Numbered from the stretch's first letter, positions 1,912 through 56,662 are shown. The stretch is 64,000 bases of DNA from an uncultured Clostridia bacterium (GCA_934169925.1 CAKPOO010000004.1:65604-129603); one strand, 5' to 3'. Numbers and translations: made by a program. The notes: generated from the letters alone by a model not told the origin.

Positions 1912-2000
1912 TGGTGGGAGTGACCGGAATCGAACCGGTACGCCTTTTGACGGGCGCAGGATTTTAAGTCCTGTGCGTCTGCCAGTTCCGCCACACTCCC
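1912..2000 (-). tRNA. tRNA-Leu(UAA), type II tRNA with a long variable arm
   Basis: Reverse complement reads GGGAGTG...ACAGGACTTAAAATCCTG...GGTTCGATTCCGGTCACTCCCACCA. Cloverleaf is consistent: anticodon loop CUUAAAA, encoded CCA. Confidence 0.85.
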
Positions 2001-6616: not shown

Positions 6617-6947
6617 TATATACTTGATAACTTACGTTATCTATTATTCCATCTATAACAAGCTCATCATCTGTCATTTCTTTTAAATCTAAATTTTTAC
6701 CATCTATACTAATATATAACTTATTTGCTTTAATTTTTATATAATTATCAAAATATTCTACTATTGATTTATATCCTTCTACAAATATTGAACTATTTCC
6801 AATCATAGTAATTTTACTATAACCTAAAGTTAATTCTTTTGGTAATTCTAAAAAGTCTGATATTTTTTCTTTTTTGGAGCATATTCTTGATTCAATTTTA
6901 AATTTTTTATTTAACTCTTTTATAATATTCTTACTTTTTTTAATCAT
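6606..6947 (-). CDS. yqfC: Sporulation protein YqfC (YabP family)
   Basis: YabP-family size and pattern; overlaps the yqfD start. Confidence 0.75.
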   Translation of the reverse strand: MIKKSKNIIKELNKKFKIESRICSKKEKISDFLELPKELTLGYSKITMIGNSSIFVEGYKSIVEYFDNYIKIKANKLYISIDGKNLDLKEMTDDELVIDGIIDNVSYQVYNGD

Positions 6948-7044
6948 ACAAACACCTATTATAATATATAAGTTTATTACCTAAAATATGTACAAGAATG
7001 TCGAATTTTGTAAATAAATCAACCTATTTTTTTGTTTTTATTTG

Positions 7045-7073
7045 TTGACTTTTATAACTCTTTGTAGTATATT
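7045..7073 (+). promoter_or_regulatory. Sigma-A-like promoter for the LytTR regulator
   Basis: TTGACT, 17 nt, TATATT. Confidence 0.4.
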
Positions 7074-7089
7074 TTTCTTAGTGATTTTT

Positions 7090-7785
7090 ATGGAAATAAA
7101 CGAGAATTATATTGTAAAAATTGGAATGTGTGATGATAATTTAAATATATTAAACCTTACTTCAAAAATGCTAGAATCATCAATTATTGAAAATGATTTT
7201 AATGCAGAAATAGTTGAAGTTACAGATGATCAAAATAAAATTTTCGAATTAGTTAAAAATAAAAAAATCGATATTTTATTCTTAGATGTAGATTTTAAAA
7301 ACCATGGTCAAAATGGTATAGAATTTGCAAAGAAATTAAGGGAATATAATAAAGATTTTTTTATTATTTATTTAACAGCCCATCAAAGATATATGCATAT
7401 ATCATTTTATGTAAAAGTATTCGATTATTTGATAAAACCTATATCACGAGAAGTTTTAGATGATATTGTACTTAGACTAAAAAATGAATTTGAATTTAAT
7501 GATTGTGTTTTTTTACATCTTAATAAATGGCTTGCTTTAAGAACTGAAGATATTGTATACATTGAAAGAATTCAAAATAAATCTTTAATTTACACTAATG
7601 ATATTTCTTATGCAACATATTTAAATCTAGAAAACTTACTAGATAAACTACCCAGAAATTTTGTTAAGTCTCATAGATCATACATTGTAAATACCAATAA
7701 AATTAAAAGTATTGATAAAAAAGATAAAATGATACTTTTTGAAAATAAACTCACTTGTCCAATGAACTCACATTTTAATATTTAA
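7090..7785 (+). CDS. LytTR-family response regulator (AgrA-like)
   Basis: REC domain (IVKIGMCDD...ILFLDVDF) plus a C-terminal LytTR domain. Likely start is MEINENY; the annotated ORF start at 7042 lies upstream of the predicted promoter. Confidence 0.85.
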   Translation: MEINENYIVKIGMCDDNLNILNLTSKMLESSIIENDFNAEIVEVTDDQNKIFELVKNKKIDILFLDVDFKNHGQNGIEFAKKLREYNKDFFIIYLTAHQRYMHISFYVKVFDYLIKPISREVLDDIVLRLKNEFEFNDCVFLHLNKWLALRTEDIVYIERIQNKSLIYTNDISYATYLNLENLLDKLPRNFVKSHRSYIVNTNKIKSIDKKDKMILFENKLTCPMNSHFNI

Positions 7786-7796
7786 GGAGTTAATTT

Positions 7797-9161
7797 ATGA
7801 CCAGCGTTATTACAAATATTTTTAGTTATTTAATTCAATCGATTGTGAATACACATTTCTTTTTAATTGTTTCAAAAAAAGTTTACAAAAATTATGAAAA
7901 TAAACATTATACAAATAAACAAAGAATAATATTTTTCATTTGTATTATTTTTTCTACTAGTTTACTAAGTACAATTTATAATTTAAATATCCAAGTTTTA
8001 TTACCCTTTAGAGGTGTTTTAATGATAGCATTGACTACTTTAATCTGTAAATTTACATTAGATATAAAGTTAGGATTATCAATAATATTAAGTATATTAT
8101 CTGCTATTTTCTCAGCTATAATTGAAATGTTTTCTACAATATTTTGTACTGCTATTTTAAGAATGGATGTTAATTTTTTACTAACAACATCTATAGGAAA
8201 ATTGTCAATTATGTCTGTTTATGGAATTTTTTCAATGTTATTAATTTTATTAATACAAAAGAAATTAAAGAATTTAAAACTTGATTCATTTACAAATAAA
8301 TTATCATTAAAAAATTTAGTAATTTTTACTATTAGTTTAGTTTTTTATGTATTTCCCCAAATGTTTTTATTTGTTAGTAATAAATATGAATATCCAATAG
8401 CATTTTTAATACTTAATATGATACAATTTCTACTAATAAATGTATTTTTACTTATATATTTAAATAAAGAACTAAAATATCAAAAATATAAATCAGATTT
8501 ATTTACATCTGAAGTTCATAATAAAGCTTTAATTGGTATGATTGATGGAGTTAGAACTTTAAAACATGATTATAATAATATTATCCAATCTTTAAACGGA
8601 TATGTTTTAACTAAACAATATGATAAATTAGAAGAATATGTAAATTCTTTACTTAACGAATGTAATTCTATTAATAACATTGCAAATTTAGATCAAAATA
8701 TATTTAATGATCCTGCAATATATGGTGTAGTTGGTTCAAAATACTTTTTGGCAACTGAAAAAAACATTAAATTTGACTTTGATATTTCAATAGATATATC
8801 AAGTATTTGCTTTTCTATGCCAGATTTATCTAGAATATTAGGAATTATTTTAGATAATGCTATTGAAGCTACTTTAAAAACAAATAAAAAATATATCAGA
8901 TTACAAATGTCTTATGATACTAGAAAAAATGCTGATGTTATCAAGGTATTCAACACATATGATAATTCTATCCAAATAGATTTAAATGAAATATACAAAA
9001 AAGGTGTATCTTCTAAAAAGATTAAATCAGGTATTGGTTTATGGGAAGTTAAAAAATTAATTTCAAAATCAAATAATTCACAAATTTATGCTACAATAGA
9101 AAAAAATAAATTTGTTCAAAATATAATTATTGAAAAAACAGATGCAAAAAATAAGAAGTGA
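7797..9161 (+). CDS. AgrC/LytS-type sensor histidine kinase (GHKL, HPK10-like)
   Basis: Six to seven N-terminal TM segments, a C-terminal ATPase domain, and adjacency to the LytTR regulator. Confidence 0.85.
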   Translation: MTSVITNIFSYLIQSIVNTHFFLIVSKKVYKNYENKHYTNKQRIIFFICIIFSTSLLSTIYNLNIQVLLPFRGVLMIALTTLICKFTLDIKLGLSIILSILSAIFSAIIEMFSTIFCTAILRMDVNFLLTTSIGKLSIMSVYGIFSMLLILLIQKKLKNLKLDSFTNKLSLKNLVIFTISLVFYVFPQMFLFVSNKYEYPIAFLILNMIQFLLINVFLLIYLNKELKYQKYKSDLFTSEVHNKALIGMIDGVRTLKHDYNNIIQSLNGYVLTKQYDKLEEYVNSLLNECNSINNIANLDQNIFNDPAIYGVVGSKYFLATEKNIKFDFDISIDISSICFSMPDLSRILGIILDNAIEATLKTNKKYIRLQMSYDTRKNADVIKVFNTYDNSIQIDLNEIYKKGVSSKKIKSGIGLWEVKKLISKSNNSQIYATIEKNKFVQNIIIEKTDAKNKK

Positions 9162-9182
9162 TTTTATTTCACTTCTTATTTT
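9151..9182. terminator. Bidirectional hairpin terminator between the kinase and agrD
   Basis: aagaagtga...tcacttctt, flanked by an A-run and a T-run. Confidence 0.6.
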
Positions 9183-9196
9183 TTATTCTTAAAACA

Positions 9197-9310
9197 TTAT
9201 TTTTCAATTAATGTTCTAGGCATTTTTGGTTGATGAAATAACCAATAAACGCAAGCTGTTGTTGAATTTTTTGCATACCCTTCTACTAATTTTTTTAATA
9301 ATTTTTTCAT
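9197..9310 (-). CDS. agrD: AgrD autoinducing-peptide precursor (37 aa): MKKLLKKLVEGYAKNSTTACVYWLFHQPKMPRTLIEK
   Basis: Clostridial AgrD pattern: amphipathic leader, Cys-containing core CVYWLF, charged HQPKMP tail. RBS GGGGG sits 8 nt upstream. Not in the ORF track because it is under 60 aa. Confidence 0.75.
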   Translation of the reverse strand: MKKLLKKLVEGYAKNSTTACVYWLFHQPKMPRTLIEK

Positions 9311-9415
9311 ACTCTTTTCCCCCTTTATTCTTTCTAATCATACTAATTACTAAATGACGCTAATTAGTAAACTAAAAATATGTATGATTTATTTATATAA
9401 AAAGCTTATAGCTTA

Positions 9416-10060
9416 TTATATCTTGTTTATGAAATAATCTTTAAATTCTTCTGACTCAATACTTGTTTTACAATGTAACATTTTATAGATTAATTTTGTT
9501 GCATTTAAATTTATAAGAAATACATTTATCATTACTAAACTTTGTATTTTTATATCTTTAATTACAAAAAAACATAAAATATATACAATACCCAAAGATA
9601 AACTAGCAAATATTCTTAATTTTTTTCTTTTACTTTCTTTTAAAATAGGTACTTCTTCTGTATCTGCTGGTGCTCTTTTTATTATTATATAACCAGAAAA
9701 TATAAGATTAACTATATAAAAAATATATAATAAATACTGTGGTATAGTTATAAATTTTACTAACAAACATGGAAAAATAAAAAACATAGTTGATAATACT
9801 AAACATAAAATATTAGTCCTTGCATGTGCTCCTCCAATGAAACTCTTGTATATAAAATTTATAATAATAGAGACTAATAAAAATGGTAATATTTTTAGTA
9901 AGTATGAAATAATAAATATTACTAAAATTTTTGGTATATCTTCTATTATTCGAGTTACTCCAAAATTCATTATTTCTTTTTGCTCATTACTTACATTTTC
10001 TCCTTTATATAAGTAATTACAAACTATATAATCACTTACTTTTTCTATCATTCCTACCAC
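9416..10060 (-). CDS. agrB: AgrB, the AgrD-processing membrane peptidase
   Basis: FIGGAHARTNILC motif (AgrB His/Cys catalytic pair); polytopic. Probable true start is MIEK at 10051, with RBS GGTGGTAGG. Confidence 0.85.
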   Translation of the reverse strand: MVGMIEKVSDYIVCNYLYKGENVSNEQKEIMNFGVTRIIEDIPKILVIFIISYLLKILPFLLVSIIINFIYKSFIGGAHARTNILCLVLSTMFFIFPCLLVKFITIPQYLLYIFYIVNLIFSGYIIIKRAPADTEEVPILKESKRKKLRIFASLSLGIVYILCFFVIKDIKIQSLVMINVFLINLNATKLIYKMLHCKTSIESEEFKDYFINKI

Positions 10061-10105
10061 CGTAAATAATTATATATCAAAAATTTTTCACTTCTTATTT
10101 TTTAA

Positions 10106-10135
10106 TTTGAATTGTATTTCTTACTATTTGAATTG
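10106..10135. promoter_or_regulatory. Putative LytTR (AgrA-type) binding box upstream of agrB
   Basis: Two perfect 9-bp direct repeats TTTGAATTG (10106-10114 and 10127-10135) separated by 12 bp, 46-75 bp upstream of agrB. Followed by TATAAT on the agrB strand. Confidence 0.5.
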
Positions 10136-10225
10136 ATTATTTTTTTCATTCAAATAAAAAAATTATACTTTTAAATAAAAAAAGAAAAGTACCACCTAAA
10201 TGATACTCTTCTTATATATTTTTTA

Positions 10226-11845
10226 TTATTGTATATTTAAAAATTCTTCTAAACAAAGTCCTGATTTTGTAACTTCTTGTGCCTTTTTTGTACCTAAATA
10301 CCTAATATGCCAAGGTTCATAAATATACCCTGTTATATTTTCTTTTCCTTTTACGTACCTTATAATAAATCCAAATCTATCACAATTTTTCGCTAACCAT
10401 TTTCCCTCTTTTGTATCTGCAAAATTTTCTTCAATTGAACATATATCAAATGCAAGTCCTGTTTGATGTTCAGATGTACCAGGCTTTGCTGATATTACAC
10501 TTGCATAATCTTCACCGTAAAGTTTAACATACTTTTGATATAGGCCCGCTTGAAGTGAATATGACCTATACGAAGATATTATATTTAAATTTATCCCCTC
10601 ATTTGCTGCTGCAACTTTCATATCATTAAATGCCATAAGCGCTGTTTGATTTACACCGGGTGCAAAATCAGCAGGCAAATAATATTTTTTATTTGCAACT
10701 AATATTCCATCAACATATGTAATACCTGGAAAGTTATATTTTTCTGGGGCTGGATAAACTTTTTCATTACTAACAGATATAACTTTTGAAATTATAGGTT
10801 CACTTTTTGTTTTTACAGTTATATTACAAGTTCCTGCTGTGTGTAATGTAATTTTCCCATCTTCTACAGTTGCAATATTTTCATTATCGCTACTCCATTC
10901 AAGTTCTGTATTTGATGCATTTTCTGGTATAGGCGTTGCTTTTATTGTTACACTTTGACCAGGAGTTAATATAACAGAATTAGAACTTAATAAAATATCA
11001 GATACTACTTCGTTAATTTTTAAATCTATATTTTTTTCAATACTACCATTAGATAAAGTAATTACAGTATCTCCTGCTTGTTTACTAGATATTTTATTTC
11101 CATTAATATCAACTATATTAGAACTTGAAATGCAAGTAATAGCTACATCTGTTGCATTTTCTGGATATAGTTTATAATTTAATTCTAACTCTTGCAATTT
11201 ATTCATAACTAATTTATCATTTTCCACAGTTATATCTTTTAATGGAATATATGTAATAACAAAATATGCCTCATCAACAGTGATATCAACATTTACTTTA
11301 ACTTTACCGTTATCTACTTCTGCAGATTTTTGATATAAATTTAAATTTCCATTTTCATATTTGTATATATCAACGTTTTTCTTTTCACGCAAGTACTCTG
11401 GTAAAATAACTGTAATATTTTCAGTTATATATTTACTTGTATTTTTACCAAGTTTAAGTACGTACGAATTAATTTTTTCACCATTAAATTCAAATTCTTT
11501 ATCATAATTTTCTATATCAATATAATTAAAGTTATTAATTTTATTAATAACATACTCATACTTATCGTTGTAGATTATGTATTTCTTATCGCCTTCGTTT
11601 ATTATCTTTTTATTTTTGTTATCAAGTACTAATATTTTAGTATTATTATTAAGAAATATTTTTCCATCTTGTGAACTTCTTAATTTATTATTAAATCTTA
11701 TATTAAATACCAAAAAATACGTTGTAATTGTCAAAATTAAGCAAAGAATAACCAATAGTACTATTGTTACTATCTTTTTATTTCTTTTTACTTTATTTTC
11801 TTTTTTAGCATCTTTGTGATCTTCTTTTTCCATAACCATCACCAA
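10226..11845 (-). CDS. Membrane-anchored D-Ala-D-Ala carboxypeptidase (VanY/M15 family) with Big_2 Ig-like repeats
   Basis: C-terminal SEHQTGLAFD...EPWHIRY (M15B). Two Ig-like repeats. N-terminal TM anchor. Confidence 0.8.
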   Translation of the reverse strand: MVMVMEKEDHKDAKKENKVKRNKKIVTIVLLVILCLILTITTYFLVFNIRFNNKLRSSQDGKIFLNNNTKILVLDNKNKKIINEGDKKYIIYNDKYEYVINKINNFNYIDIENYDKEFEFNGEKINSYVLKLGKNTSKYITENITVILPEYLREKKNVDIYKYENGNLNLYQKSAEVDNGKVKVNVDITVDEAYFVITYIPLKDITVENDKLVMNKLQELELNYKLYPENATDVAITCISSSNIVDINGNKISSKQAGDTVITLSNGSIEKNIDLKINEVVSDILLSSNSVILTPGQSVTIKATPIPENASNTELEWSSDNENIATVEDGKITLHTAGTCNITVKTKSEPIISKVISVSNEKVYPAPEKYNFPGITYVDGILVANKKYYLPADFAPGVNQTALMAFNDMKVAAANEGINLNIISSYRSYSLQAGLYQKYVKLYGEDYASVISAKPGTSEHQTGLAFDICSIEENFADTKEGKWLAKNCDRFGFIIRYVKGKENITGYIYEPWHIRYLGTKKAQEVTKSGLCLEEFLNIQ

Positions 11846-56417: not shown

Positions 56418-56493
56418 GGGCTATTAGCTCAGTTGGCAGAGCACTTGACTTTTAATCAAGTTGTCCGCAGTTCGAACCTGCGATAGCTCACCA
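56418..56493 (+). tRNA. tRNA-Lys(UUU)
   Basis: Cloverleaf, anticodon loop CUUUUAA, encoded CCA. Confidence 0.9.
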
Positions 56494-56501
56494 CTTTTTT
56501 T

Positions 56502-56576
56502 GGCCCGTTGGTCAATCGGTTAAGACATCGCCCTTTCACGGCGGAGTGGGGAGTTCGACTCTCCCACGGGTCACCA
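56502..56576 (+). tRNA. tRNA-Glu(UUC)
   Basis: Acceptor GGCCCGT/ACGGGTC, anticodon loop CUUUCAC, CCA. Confidence 0.85.
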
Positions 56577-56586
56577 TGTATTGCAT

Positions 56587-56662
56587 GCTGGAATAGCTCA
56601 GCAGGTAGAGCAACGGTCTTGTAAACCGTAGGTCGCCCGTTCGATTCGGGCTTTCAGCTCCA
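56587..56662 (+). tRNA. tRNA-Thr(UGU)
   Basis: Acceptor GCTGGAA/TTTCAGC, anticodon loop CUUGUAA, CCA. Confidence 0.85.

What the first reader, a model, noticed from the sequence alone, without database searches (positions are those of the whole stretch)
7045..10140. Complete agr-type quorum-sensing locus with a recognisable AgrD peptide and a LytTR direct-repeat box
agrB (GGAHA...C motif) is followed by a 37-aa AgrD (MKKLLKKLVEGYAKNSTTACVYWLFHQPKMPRTLIEK). The predicted thiolactone core starts at Cys20 and is followed by the clostridial HQPxxP recognition tail. A LytTR response regulator and an AgrC-like 6-7 TM histidine kinase converge on the agrBD pair. Two perfect TTTGAATTG repeats 12 bp apart lie at the right distance upstream of agrB, matching AgrA-family binding-site architecture and implying autoregulation. 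The ORF track missed agrD.
Basis: partly seen in the sequence, partly recalled or inferred. Interest (0 to 1): 0.55.

Follow-up and report, generated by a model that had tools for sequence, protein, structure and literature searches.

The report
Clostridial agr peptide quorum-sensing locus
This is a complete but ordinary agr-type cell-to-cell signalling locus, with a peptide-maturing enzyme, a 37-residue signal precursor, a membrane sensor kinase and a DNA-binding regulator, in an uncultured, very AT-rich spore-forming Clostridia bacterium.

Summary
All four agr components are present and intact:
- AgrB (9416-10051, minus strand) carries the catalytic His and Cys.
- AgrD (9197-9310, minus strand; 37 aa) scores above the curated cutoff of NCBIfam's AgrD model.
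- The kinase (7797-9161, plus strand) has S. aureus AgrC as its only matches among solved structures.
- The regulator (7090-7785, plus strand) has a receiver domain plus a LytTR domain.

The two operons converge on a shared terminator hairpin. Eleven syntenic loci from related metagenome-assembled Clostridia have the same layout beside yabP-yqfD. In them the AgrD flanks are conserved. The five residues after the Cys and the kinase's membrane sensor are hypervariable. This is the classic agr specificity pattern.

Cleavage before the invariant His predicts a six-residue macrocycle, CVYWLF ([M+H]+ 812.380). By analogy with characterised clostridial signals, it is probably tail-less and rearranges from thiolactone to lactam.

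The repeat box is real. It is a perfect 10-mer, twice, 21 bp apart, centred about -58 from the predicted start site and upstream of a poor -35. Its role as the regulator's binding site remains inferred. It is only modestly unlikely by chance (p about 0.01), it is not conserved in relatives, and its match to the LytTR consensus is not significant.

Verdict: a new member of a known kind, of low to moderate interest.

The parts
6999..7005 (+). TGTCGAA motif, a perfect match to the Spo0A '0A box', in the divergent yabP/regulator intergenic region about 40 nt upstream of the -35 of the regulator-kinase promoter. It is positionally conserved in five relatives. Which regulator binds it is not established.
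   Evidence: the consensus TGNCGAA is from my own knowledge
7045..7073 (+). Promoter of the regulator-kinase operon: -35 TTGACT, 17-nt spacer, -10 TATATT. The TTGAC and TTTGTAGTATA blocks are invariant or nearly so in nine loci. No copy of the agrB box lies here.
7090..7785 (+). AgrA-like response regulator (231 aa): a receiver domain with the predicted phospho-acceptor Asp66 in LFLDVDF, plus a LytTR DNA-binding domain.
7797..9161 (+). AgrC-like sensor histidine kinase (454 aa): about 6-7 hydrophobic segments in residues 1-220, His in RTLKHDYNN, and a GHKL ATPase domain.
9145..9185 (.). Bidirectional intrinsic terminator hairpin (16-17 bp stem) shared by the two convergent operons. Its left arm is the last codons of the kinase gene.
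   Evidence: z = -5.6
9197..9310 (-). agrD: 37-aa precursor with an amphipathic leader (residues 1-19), a core CVYWLF (20-25) and a follower HQPKMPRTLIEK (26-37).
9311..9415 (-). agrB-agrD spacer (105 nt) holding two blocks conserved in relatives: TATAAAT-like, and GTTTACTAATTAGCGTC (9372 to 9356 on the minus strand). It may be an internal agrD promoter or a 5' leader element.
9416..10051 (-). agrB: a 211-aa polytopic membrane cysteine peptidase/cyclase with His76 and Cys83.
10069..10097 (-). Predicted agrBD promoter: -10 TATAAT (10074 to 10069), perfectly conserved in all nine loci compared, and a poor -35 TAAGAA (10097 to 10092). The estimated transcription start is near 10062.
10105..10135 (-). 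Direct-repeat box, reading CAATTCAAAT-N11-CAATTCAAAT on the agrB sense strand (9-mers [T/A]CAATTCAA with a 12-bp spacer). It spans about -73 to -43 and is centred near -58. It is the predicted binding site of the LytTR regulator.
10146..10155 (+). Partial third copy of the repeat in inverted orientation (TCATTCAAAT). It is part of a 16-nt, 94% complementary inverted repeat with the proximal box copy. Its significance is unknown.
10182..10213 (-). Terminator-like hairpin of the upstream VanY/Big_2 gene. It marks the upstream limit of the agrBD control region.

Best explanation
This is a functional four-gene agr-type autoinducing-peptide system split into two convergent operons.

**Signal production (inferred).** AgrB, a membrane cysteine peptidase, recognises the conserved follower HQPKMPRTLIEK of the 37-aa AgrD. 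It cuts between Phe25 and His26 and joins the Phe25 carbonyl to the Cys20 thiol, giving a six-residue macrocycle, CVYWLF. A second protease removes the 19-residue amphipathic leader.

**Signal chemistry (inferred).** If the leader is removed right at Cys20, as in the characterised clostridial signals, the thiolactone rearranges spontaneously (S-to-N acyl shift). The product is the lactam cyclo(CVYWLF), [M+H]+ 812.380.

**Signal reception (inferred).** The exported peptide is sensed by the polytopic N-terminal domain of the AgrC-like kinase. The kinase phosphorylates the REC+LytTR regulator.

**Feedback (inferred).** The regulator most likely binds as a dimer to the two CAATTCAAAT repeats just upstream of the weak -35 of the agrBD promoter and raises signal production. 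The receptor operon has a near-consensus promoter without the box, so feedback appears to act on signal synthesis only.

**Shown here:** gene identities, motifs, layout, conservation and the hypervariability pattern. **Inferred:** cleavage site, ring size, absence of a tail, binding of the regulator to the box, and target genes beyond agrBD. Sporulation is a plausible output, given the conserved position beside yabP-yqfD and the phenotypes of other Clostridia.
For: - **Gene identities.** Pfam and NCBIfam hit all four proteins, and AgrD scores above the curated cutoff.
- **AgrB active site.** His76 and Cys83 are invariant and align with the S. aureus catalytic H77/C84.
- **Kinase.** Its only PDB matches are two S. 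aureus AgrC fragments, the better at E 2.4e-17 with the HDY histidine motif aligned.
- **Regulator.** Its LytTR domain matches AgrA and ComE.
- **Synteny.** Eleven related loci keep the order agrB-agrD, then kinase-regulator on the opposite strand, beside yabP-yqfD wherever the fetched DNA reaches that far.
- **AgrD family alignment.** M1, C20, H26, P31 and K37 are invariant. Positions 21-24 have no majority residue and position 25 is a variable hydrophobic residue. A within-species V21A variant exists.
- **Co-diversification.** The kinase sensor domain averages 27% identity against 64% for the kinase core across the clade. In a closer pair with different AgrD cores the figures are 55% and 87%.
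- **Ring size and chemistry.** Six-residue, tail-less clostridial signals that rearrange to lactams are documented: CWFWSY in R. cellulolyticum, and C. acetobutylicum. The Pro-X-X-Pro follower is described as the AgrB recognition motif.
- **Box.** It is a perfect 10-mer occurring twice at period 21, and these are the only copies in 64 kb. Its position and spacing match published AgrA sites: 12-13 bp spacing, upstream of the -35, centre near -60. The agrBD promoter has a conserved TATAAT but a poor -35.
Against: - No transcript, peptide or binding data exist for this organism.
- The box is not conserved in the 45-50%-identical relatives. Only two of them have any period-21 repeat upstream of agrB. 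Those repeats differ in sequence and lie about 40 nt further upstream, and one is on the opposite strand.
- Scoring against the LytTR consensus does not separate the box from shuffled sequence.
- Perfect period-21 repeats are not rare in this AT-rich window.
- Pfam's AgrD model does not hit the peptide.
- The NCBIfam AgrA, AgrC and AgrB matches are far below their curated cutoffs, so these are not orthologues of the staphylococcal proteins in the strict sense.
- Ring size and the absence of a tail cannot be read from sequence.
Confidence: 0.8

Rival explanations
1. The locus is a genuine agr system, but the TTTGAATTG repeat pair is not the regulator's binding site. It would be a chance or structural feature of an AT-rich promoter region, such as phased A/T tracts or an UP-like element. 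Any autoregulation would then use another site, or agrBD would not be autoinduced.
For: - Six perfect period-21 repeats of at least 10 nt occur in the window, and another lies only 17 nt away at 10152/10173.
- Region shuffles give about 1% for such a repeat, which is not negligible for a post-hoc pattern.
- Relatives have no equivalent box at the same position.
- The LytTR consensus score is not significant.
- A metagenome scan for the pattern returned only unrelated coding repeats.
Against: - The exact 9+12+9 architecture, the placement ending 7 nt before a weak -35, and a centre near -58 all match published AgrA sites.
- The 9-mer occurs nowhere else in 64 kb.
- LytTR sites are known to diverge between species.
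Confidence: 0.35
2. The mature signal is not the tail-less six-residue macrocycle. It could be a canonical five-residue ring (CVYWL, cleaved before Phe25). Alternatively, it could keep an N-terminal exocyclic tail (for example TTA-CVYWLF) and so remain a stable thiolactone like staphylococcal signals.
For: - Five-membered rings are described as by far the most common.
- The N-terminal cleavage site cannot be predicted.
- Relatives vary in the number of residues between Cys and His: five in most, six in L009 and in a second subfamily. AgrB therefore may not always cut right before His.
Against: - His26 and Pro31 are invariant, while everything between Cys and His is variable. This places the recognition and cleavage boundary at His.
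- Position 25 is always hydrophobic, like the C-terminal ring residues of known signals.
- Six-residue tail-less signals were demonstrated chemically in two Clostridia.
Confidence: 0.2
3. The kinase-regulator pair is not the receptor for this AgrD. It would be a neighbouring LytTR two-component system that senses something else, with the peptide sensed elsewhere, as with AgrBD and VirSR in C. perfringens.
For: - The two gene pairs are separate, convergent transcription units.
- Orphan agrBD pairs exist in Clostridia.
- One relative has unrelated genes inserted between the pairs (L012).
Against: - The four genes stay together in all 12 loci examined.
- The kinase's sensor domain is hypervariable in step with the AgrD core, while its catalytic core and the regulator are conserved.
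- Its only PDB matches are S. aureus AgrC fragments.
Confidence: 0.07

Closest known systems
Clostridium acetobutylicum agr system (agrBD + agrCA; Steiner et al. 2012, as summarised in PMC10301443 and PMC8251862)
   Same: - It has separate agrBD and agrCA transcription units.
- Its signal is a six-membered ring without an N-terminal tail.
- The host is a spore-forming Clostridium in which agr controls sporulation.
   Different: - Here the two units converge, and the order is regulator then kinase.
- No LanM-like CA_C0082 homologue is adjacent. The neighbours are VanY/Big_2 and YabP/YqfD.
- The sequence similarity of this AgrB to the C. acetobutylicum protein was not measured here.
Ruminiclostridium cellulolyticum Rc-AIP1 (cyclo-CWFWSY, PMC8251862)
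   Same: - It is a six-residue, aromatic-rich core beginning with Cys.
- It has no tail, and the thiolactone rearranges to a lactam.
- It controls sporulation.
   Different: Only the analogy of core length and composition is shown here. The chemistry of the present peptide is untested.
Staphylococcus aureus agrBDCA / P2-P3
   Same: - It has the same four protein families.
- The AgrB catalytic His and Cys are spaced seven residues apart.
- It uses an HPK10-type kinase with an HDY histidine motif.
- Its LytTR regulator binds 9-bp direct repeats spaced 12-13 bp apart, upstream of a suboptimal promoter.
- AgrD and the AgrC sensor are hypervariable.
   Different: - S. aureus has a single operon plus the divergent RNAIII. 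Here there are two convergent operons and no RNAIII-like RNA.
- The S. aureus precursor is 46 aa with a five-residue ring and an exocyclic tail. Here it is 37 aa with six residues before the follower.
- The follower here is HQPxxP, not DEVEVP.
- The box sequence CAATTCAA differs from ACAGTTAAG.
- NCBIfam scores for the kinase, regulator and AgrB lie far below the curated cutoffs of the staphylococcal AgrC and AgrA models and of the AgrB-like model.
Clostridioides difficile Agr2 (R20291) and C. perfringens AgrBD/VirSR
   Same: - C. difficile Agr2 has all four genes, arranged in the opposite order to S. aureus.
- The clostridial follower carries a Pro-X-X-Pro motif.
- The HQP tail of C. perfringens and C. 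difficile AgrD is from my own recollection.
   Different: From recollection, those AgrDs have four residues between Cys and HQP, giving a five-residue ring. This family has five.

Membership tests
agr-type autoinducing-peptide quorum sensing (general) | AgrB-family membrane peptidase with catalytic His and Cys | tested here: met
   PF04647 hit at E 1.1e-32, 113 bits against a cutoff of 23.
agr-type autoinducing-peptide quorum sensing (general) | Small AgrD precursor encoded next to agrB, with an amphipathic leader, a Cys or Ser in the core, and a charged, Pro-containing follower | tested here: met
   NCBIfam TIGR04223 scores 24.4 bits against a cutoff of 19. The gene lies 105 nt downstream of agrB on the same strand. 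The leader has a hydrophobic moment of 0.50 at 100 degrees. C20, H26 and P31 are invariant in 22 family members.
agr-type autoinducing-peptide quorum sensing (general) | Match to Pfam's AgrD model | tested here: not met
   No Pfam family hit the 37-aa peptide at E <= 0.01. The NCBIfam model, which is broader, does match it.
agr-type autoinducing-peptide quorum sensing (general) | AgrC-type (HPK10) kinase: polytopic membrane sensor, HDY histidine box, GHKL domain of the HATPase_c_5 type | tested here: met
   PF14501 and PF14689 hits. There are 6-7 hydrophobic segments in residues 1-220. The only PDB matches are S. aureus AgrC fragments, with RTLKHDYNN aligned to RKFRHDYVN.
agr-type autoinducing-peptide quorum sensing (general) | AgrA-type regulator: receiver domain plus LytTR domain | tested here: met
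   PF00072 and PF04397 hits. A full-length NCBIfam AgrA alignment covers 10-224 against 2-229 of 238. PDB matches include AgrA LytTR and ComE.
Staphylococcal agr (strict orthology: NCBIfam curated models) | Scores above the curated cutoffs of the NCBIfam AgrA, AgrC and AgrB-like models | tested here: not met
   AgrA scores 50.9 against 400, AgrC 82.1 against 500, and AgrB 63.7 against 282 bits. The proteins are family members, not orthologues of the staphylococcal proteins.
Staphylococcal agr (strict orthology: NCBIfam curated models) | Single agrBDCA operon with a divergent RNAIII effector | tested here: not met
   There are two convergent operons separated by a bidirectional terminator. No Rfam family matched 6900-10300 apart from a sub-threshold chance hit.
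AgrA/LytTR-regulated promoter | Pair of 9-bp direct repeats, 12-13 bp apart, just upstream of a suboptimal -35/-10 | tested here: met
   The repeats are perfect with a 12-bp spacer and end 7 nt before a poor -35 (TAAGAA). The pair is centred near -58.
AgrA/LytTR-regulated promoter | Half-sites matching [TA][AC][CA]GTTN[AG][TG], and conservation of the site in related genomes | tested here: inconclusive
   Each half-site ([T/A]CAATTCAA) matches 6 of 8 specified positions, which is no better than shuffled AT-rich sequence. No equivalent box occurs in nine related promoters.
AgrA/LytTR-regulated promoter | Physical binding of the regulator and box-dependent induction | not testable with these tools
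   This needs EMSA or footprinting and reporter assays.
Clostridial tail-less cyclic signals (cAIPs, PMC8251862) | Macrocycle starting at an N-terminal Cys with no exocyclic tail, rearranged to a lactam | not testable with these tools
   Sequence fixes only the C-terminal boundary, at the invariant His26. The leader cleavage site and the chemistry need LC-MS with maleimide labelling.

The most novel reading that the evidence does not exclude
In this uncultured Clostridia clade the agr circuit may be wired directly into sporulation control. The locus always sits beside yabP-yqfD. The receptor operon has a near-consensus promoter preceded by a positionally conserved TGTCGAA element, a perfect Spo0A 0A-box that in this genome sits in a 10-bp-phased run of TGT heptamers. 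Only the signal genes carry the LytTR-type box. Spo0A would then set receptor levels while the hexapeptide signal amplifies itself. In addition, agrD may have its own conserved leader or promoter element in the unusually long agrB-agrD spacer.
Probability: 0.25. Interest if true: 0.45.

Novelty: new member of a known kind. Interest (0 to 1): 0.3.

Why it matters
The finding extends agr peptide signalling, with a predicted six-residue aromatic macrocycle, to a very AT-rich, spore-forming Clostridia lineage known only from metagenomes.

It gives concrete, testable predictions:
- peptide masses of 812.380 and 784.349
- a 31-bp candidate operator
- a set of natural AgrD and sensor variants that could be used to study signal specificity

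It does not change what is known about how agr systems work.

Tried and rejected
- **Genome scan.** A genome-contig scan with AgrB found only a 32%-identical 'Bacilli' MAG.
- **Regulon scan.** A metagenome-wide scan for the box (CAATTCAAAT-N11-CAATTCAAAT) returned more than 120 hits. The 40 lowest-GC hits, the ones inspected, were all unrelated sequences, mostly coding tandem repeats, and none had this organism's spacer. The regulon could not be defined.
- **Consensus scoring.** Scoring all related agrB and regulator upstream regions against the LytTR consensus pair was uninformative in AT-rich DNA. The one exception was L010, which has TCAGTTTGG twice on the strand opposite agrB (p = 0.025).
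- **De novo repeat search.** In relatives it found period-21 repeats only in L010 and L012, with different sequences and positions.
- **Promoter alignment.** Aligning nine agrB upstream regions showed only the -10 and the ribosome-binding site conserved.
- **AgrB structure.** There is no sequence relative of AgrB among solved structures.
- **AgrD homologue search.** The exhaustive phmmer search worked. Its two top multi-stretch hits (P0148, P0151) are repetitive proteins unrelated to AgrD, and I rejected them as spurious.
- **Spacer hairpin.** A conserved RNA hairpin around the agrB-agrD spacer motif was considered. RNAalifold found no consensus structure, and per-locus folds are significant only in this genome. 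Only the sequence block is claimed.
- **Taxonomy.** SecY relatives are unnamed 'Clostridia bacterium' MAGs at 83% identity or less, so no genus could be assigned.


Full report
**1. What is in the sequence**

The mechanical ORF list and translation show four genes.
- On the plus strand, a 231-aa protein starts at 7090 and a 454-aa protein runs from 7797 to 9161.
- On the minus strand, a 211-aa protein runs from 10051 to 9416 and a 37-aa peptide from 9310 to 9197.

Profile searches identify them as follows.
- The 231-aa protein is a Response_reg + LytTR regulator.
- The 454-aa protein is a SPOB_a + HATPase_c_5 (GHKL) kinase.
- The 211-aa protein is AgrB (PF04647, E 1e-32).
- The peptide matches NCBIfam's 'AgrD family cyclic lactone autoinducer peptide' above its curated cutoff (24.4 against 19 bits).
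- Pfam's own AgrD model does not hit the peptide.

The two operons converge on a perfect 16-17-bp hairpin at 9145-9185. It folds far better than shuffles (z = -5.6) and can terminate both. The flanking genes are yabP/yqfD (sporulation) on one side and a VanY/Big_2 carboxypeptidase and secY on the other.

**2. Functional residues**

In an alignment with nine homologues and S. aureus AgrB, G74-A75-H76-A77 and C83 are invariant. They correspond to S. aureus G75, H77 and C84, which are required for AgrD cleavage. Its numbering agrees with the paper's R70/G75/H77/C84.

The kinase's only matches among solved structures are two S. aureus AgrC fragments, the kinase module and the ATP-binding domain. 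In the better match (E 2.4e-17) the histidine box RTLKHDYNN aligns to RKFRHDYVN. Its first 220 residues hold about 6-7 hydrophobic segments. The regulator's LytTR domain matches AgrA and ComE structures. Its receiver domain has the usual acidic pocket and LFLDVDF.

**3. Relatives**

The identical AgrB occurs on several metagenome contigs with the same gene order, and a 37-aa gene is called there. AgrB homologues at 45-50% identity come from unnamed 'Clostridia bacterium' MAGs. Eleven of their loci were fetched. All have agrB, then agrD, then the kinase and regulator on the opposite strand. Where the fetched DNA reaches that far, yabP-yqfD follows. SecY relatives reach only 83% identity or less and are also unnamed. 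The window is 21-31% GC. The host is therefore an uncultured, very AT-rich, spore-forming member of the Clostridia.

**4. The peptide**

Across 22 family members M1, C20, H26, P31 and K37 are invariant, and the leader and follower are well conserved. Positions 21-24 have no majority residue, and position 25 is always hydrophobic. A within-species variant differs only at position 21 (CAYWLF).

The kinase sensor domain averages 27% pairwise identity against 64% for the catalytic core. In a closer pair with different cores the figures are 55% and 87%. This pattern, a hypervariable AgrD core and AgrC sensor with conserved surroundings, is the hallmark of agr specificity groups. It argues that the kinase is the cognate receptor.

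The invariant His and the Pro-X-X-Pro follower mark the AgrB recognition region. Cleavage before His26 gives a six-residue macrocycle, CVYWLF. Six-residue, tail-less signals are documented for C. acetobutylicum and R. cellulolyticum (CWFWSY). Those rearrange from thiolactone to lactam.

Predicted [M+H]+ values are 812.380 for CVYWLF and 784.349 for the variant. The same calculation reproduces the published 873.3389 for CWFWSY.

**5. The box**

TTTGAATTG occurs exactly twice in the window, at 10106-10114 and 10127-10135. The identity is 10 nt long. On the agrB sense strand it reads CAATTCAAAT-N11-CAATTCAAAT.

All nine loci share a perfect TATAAT 14-38 nt before the annotated agrB start. In this genome it lies at 10074 to 10069, with a poor -35 (TAAGAA). 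With a start site near 10062, the box spans about -73 to -43 and is centred near -58. Published AgrA sites are 9-bp imperfect direct repeats, 12-13 bp apart, upstream of the -35 of promoters with suboptimal elements, and centred near -60.

Several points count against over-reading the box.
- Perfect period-21 repeats of at least 10 nt occur six times in the window, at least two of them inside a gene.
- Shuffles of the intergenic region give roughly 1%.
- The half-sites match the degenerate LytTR consensus no better than shuffles do.
- Relatives show no equivalent box.
- A metagenome scan returned only unrelated repeats.

I rate the box as the regulator's site at about 0.55-0.65. The receptor operon has a near-consensus promoter (TTGACT-17-TATATT, 7045-7073), conserved in all relatives, and no copy of the box. 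Any box-mediated feedback would therefore act on signal synthesis only.

**6. Comparison and verdict**

In mechanism and family this is an agr system. It is closest in layout and predicted chemistry to the C. acetobutylicum and R. cellulolyticum type: separate operons, a six-residue tail-less signal, and a link to sporulation.

It is not a strict orthologue of the staphylococcal system. NCBIfam scores lie far below the curated cutoffs, there is no single operon, and there is no RNAIII. It is a new member of a known kind.

**7. Side observations**

- A 19-nt exact direct repeat brackets agrBD. One copy lies in the promoter's -35 region and one is an arm of the terminator.
- A TGTCGAA element, a perfect Spo0A 0A-box, is positionally conserved upstream of the receptor operon in six loci.
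- The agrB-agrD spacer is unusually long and contains conserved blocks.
- A short upstream ORF in relatives is fused in frame to the regulator here.

These are recorded in the notebook. None changes the main verdict.

Noticed in passing
window 10086-10104 and 9167-9185 (minus strand): An exact 19-nt direct repeat, TAAAAAATAAGAAGTGAAA, brackets the whole agrBD unit. One copy covers the predicted -35 of the agrB promoter. The other is the 5' arm of the agrD/kinase terminator. These are the only two exact copies in 64 kb, and related species lack the repeat. It is not chance, and its origin or role is unexplained (possibly a recombination footprint or a deletion substrate).
   Followed up: partly
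window 6999-7005 (+); L007 7225, L009 7413, L010 7132, L013 7187, L014 7167: TGTCGAA, a perfect Spo0A 0A-box, lies about 40 nt upstream of the -35 of the regulator-kinase promoter, in the divergent region shared with yabP. It has the same strand and distance in five relatives, within a conserved block ATGTCGAATTTTGTA. In this genome three TGT heptamers are phased at 10 bp. TGTCGAA pairs also lie upstream of agrB in L012 and L137, with a TGTCGAA/TGTCTAA pair in L007. It could be a Spo0A site or the LytTR regulator's own site.
   Followed up: partly
window 9311-9415 (minus strand); conserved block at 9356-9372: The agrB-agrD spacer is long (105 nt here, 120-210 nt in relatives). It contains two conserved blocks: AAATATAAATT, which resembles a -10 element, and GTTTACYTAATAGCGTA. 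A hairpin around the second block is strong only in this genome (spacer fold z = -3.5), and RNAalifold found no consensus structure. It may be an internal agrD promoter or a 5' leader element.
   Followed up: partly
window 7090-7113 (+) and equivalent positions in L009, L013, L014: Relatives carry a 7-8-codon upstream ORF (for example MELEENI*, MEIEEVIW*) whose stop overlaps the regulator's ATG. In this genome and in L007 the relatives' ATG is ATT and the mini-ORF is fused in frame, giving the N-terminal extension MEINENY. The true translation start here is therefore slightly uncertain.
   Followed up: partly
P0118; L002 4976-6370; L011 and L014 kinase genes: Natural variation is present. An AgrD V21A variant (CAYWLF) occurs within the species. 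One contig has the kinase extended to 464 aa, seemingly by a frameshift near its 3' end. In two related species the kinase is called as truncated or split genes, which may reflect decay or assembly errors.
   Followed up: no
L010 3875-3905: A related locus has a perfect TGCCAAACTG repeat at period 21 upstream of agrB. Its reverse complement (TCAGTTTGG / GCAGTTTGG) fits the LytTR consensus at 15 of 16 specified positions (p = 0.025). However, it reads away from agrB and lies about 95 nt from either neighbouring start site.
   Followed up: partly
window 10152-10183 and 10146-10163: Next to the box lies a second perfect period-21 repeat (AAATAAAAAAA, twice). An inverted partial third copy of the box motif is also present, as a 16-nt, 94% complementary inverted repeat with the proximal copy.
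   Followed up: no
P0148 (591 aa), P0151 (399 aa): The exhaustive AgrD search gave top hits to two highly repetitive proteins with 6-10 matched stretches each. They are tandem-repeat sequences with a chance resemblance (…KHSTTTKCHYIVH…), not multi-core AgrD precursors.
   Followed up: yes
window 46890-47231 (-), 56418-56659 (+), 1915-2000 (-): The window also holds a bacterial RNase P RNA (class A) and four tRNA genes. GC content is 21-31% throughout.
   Followed up: no
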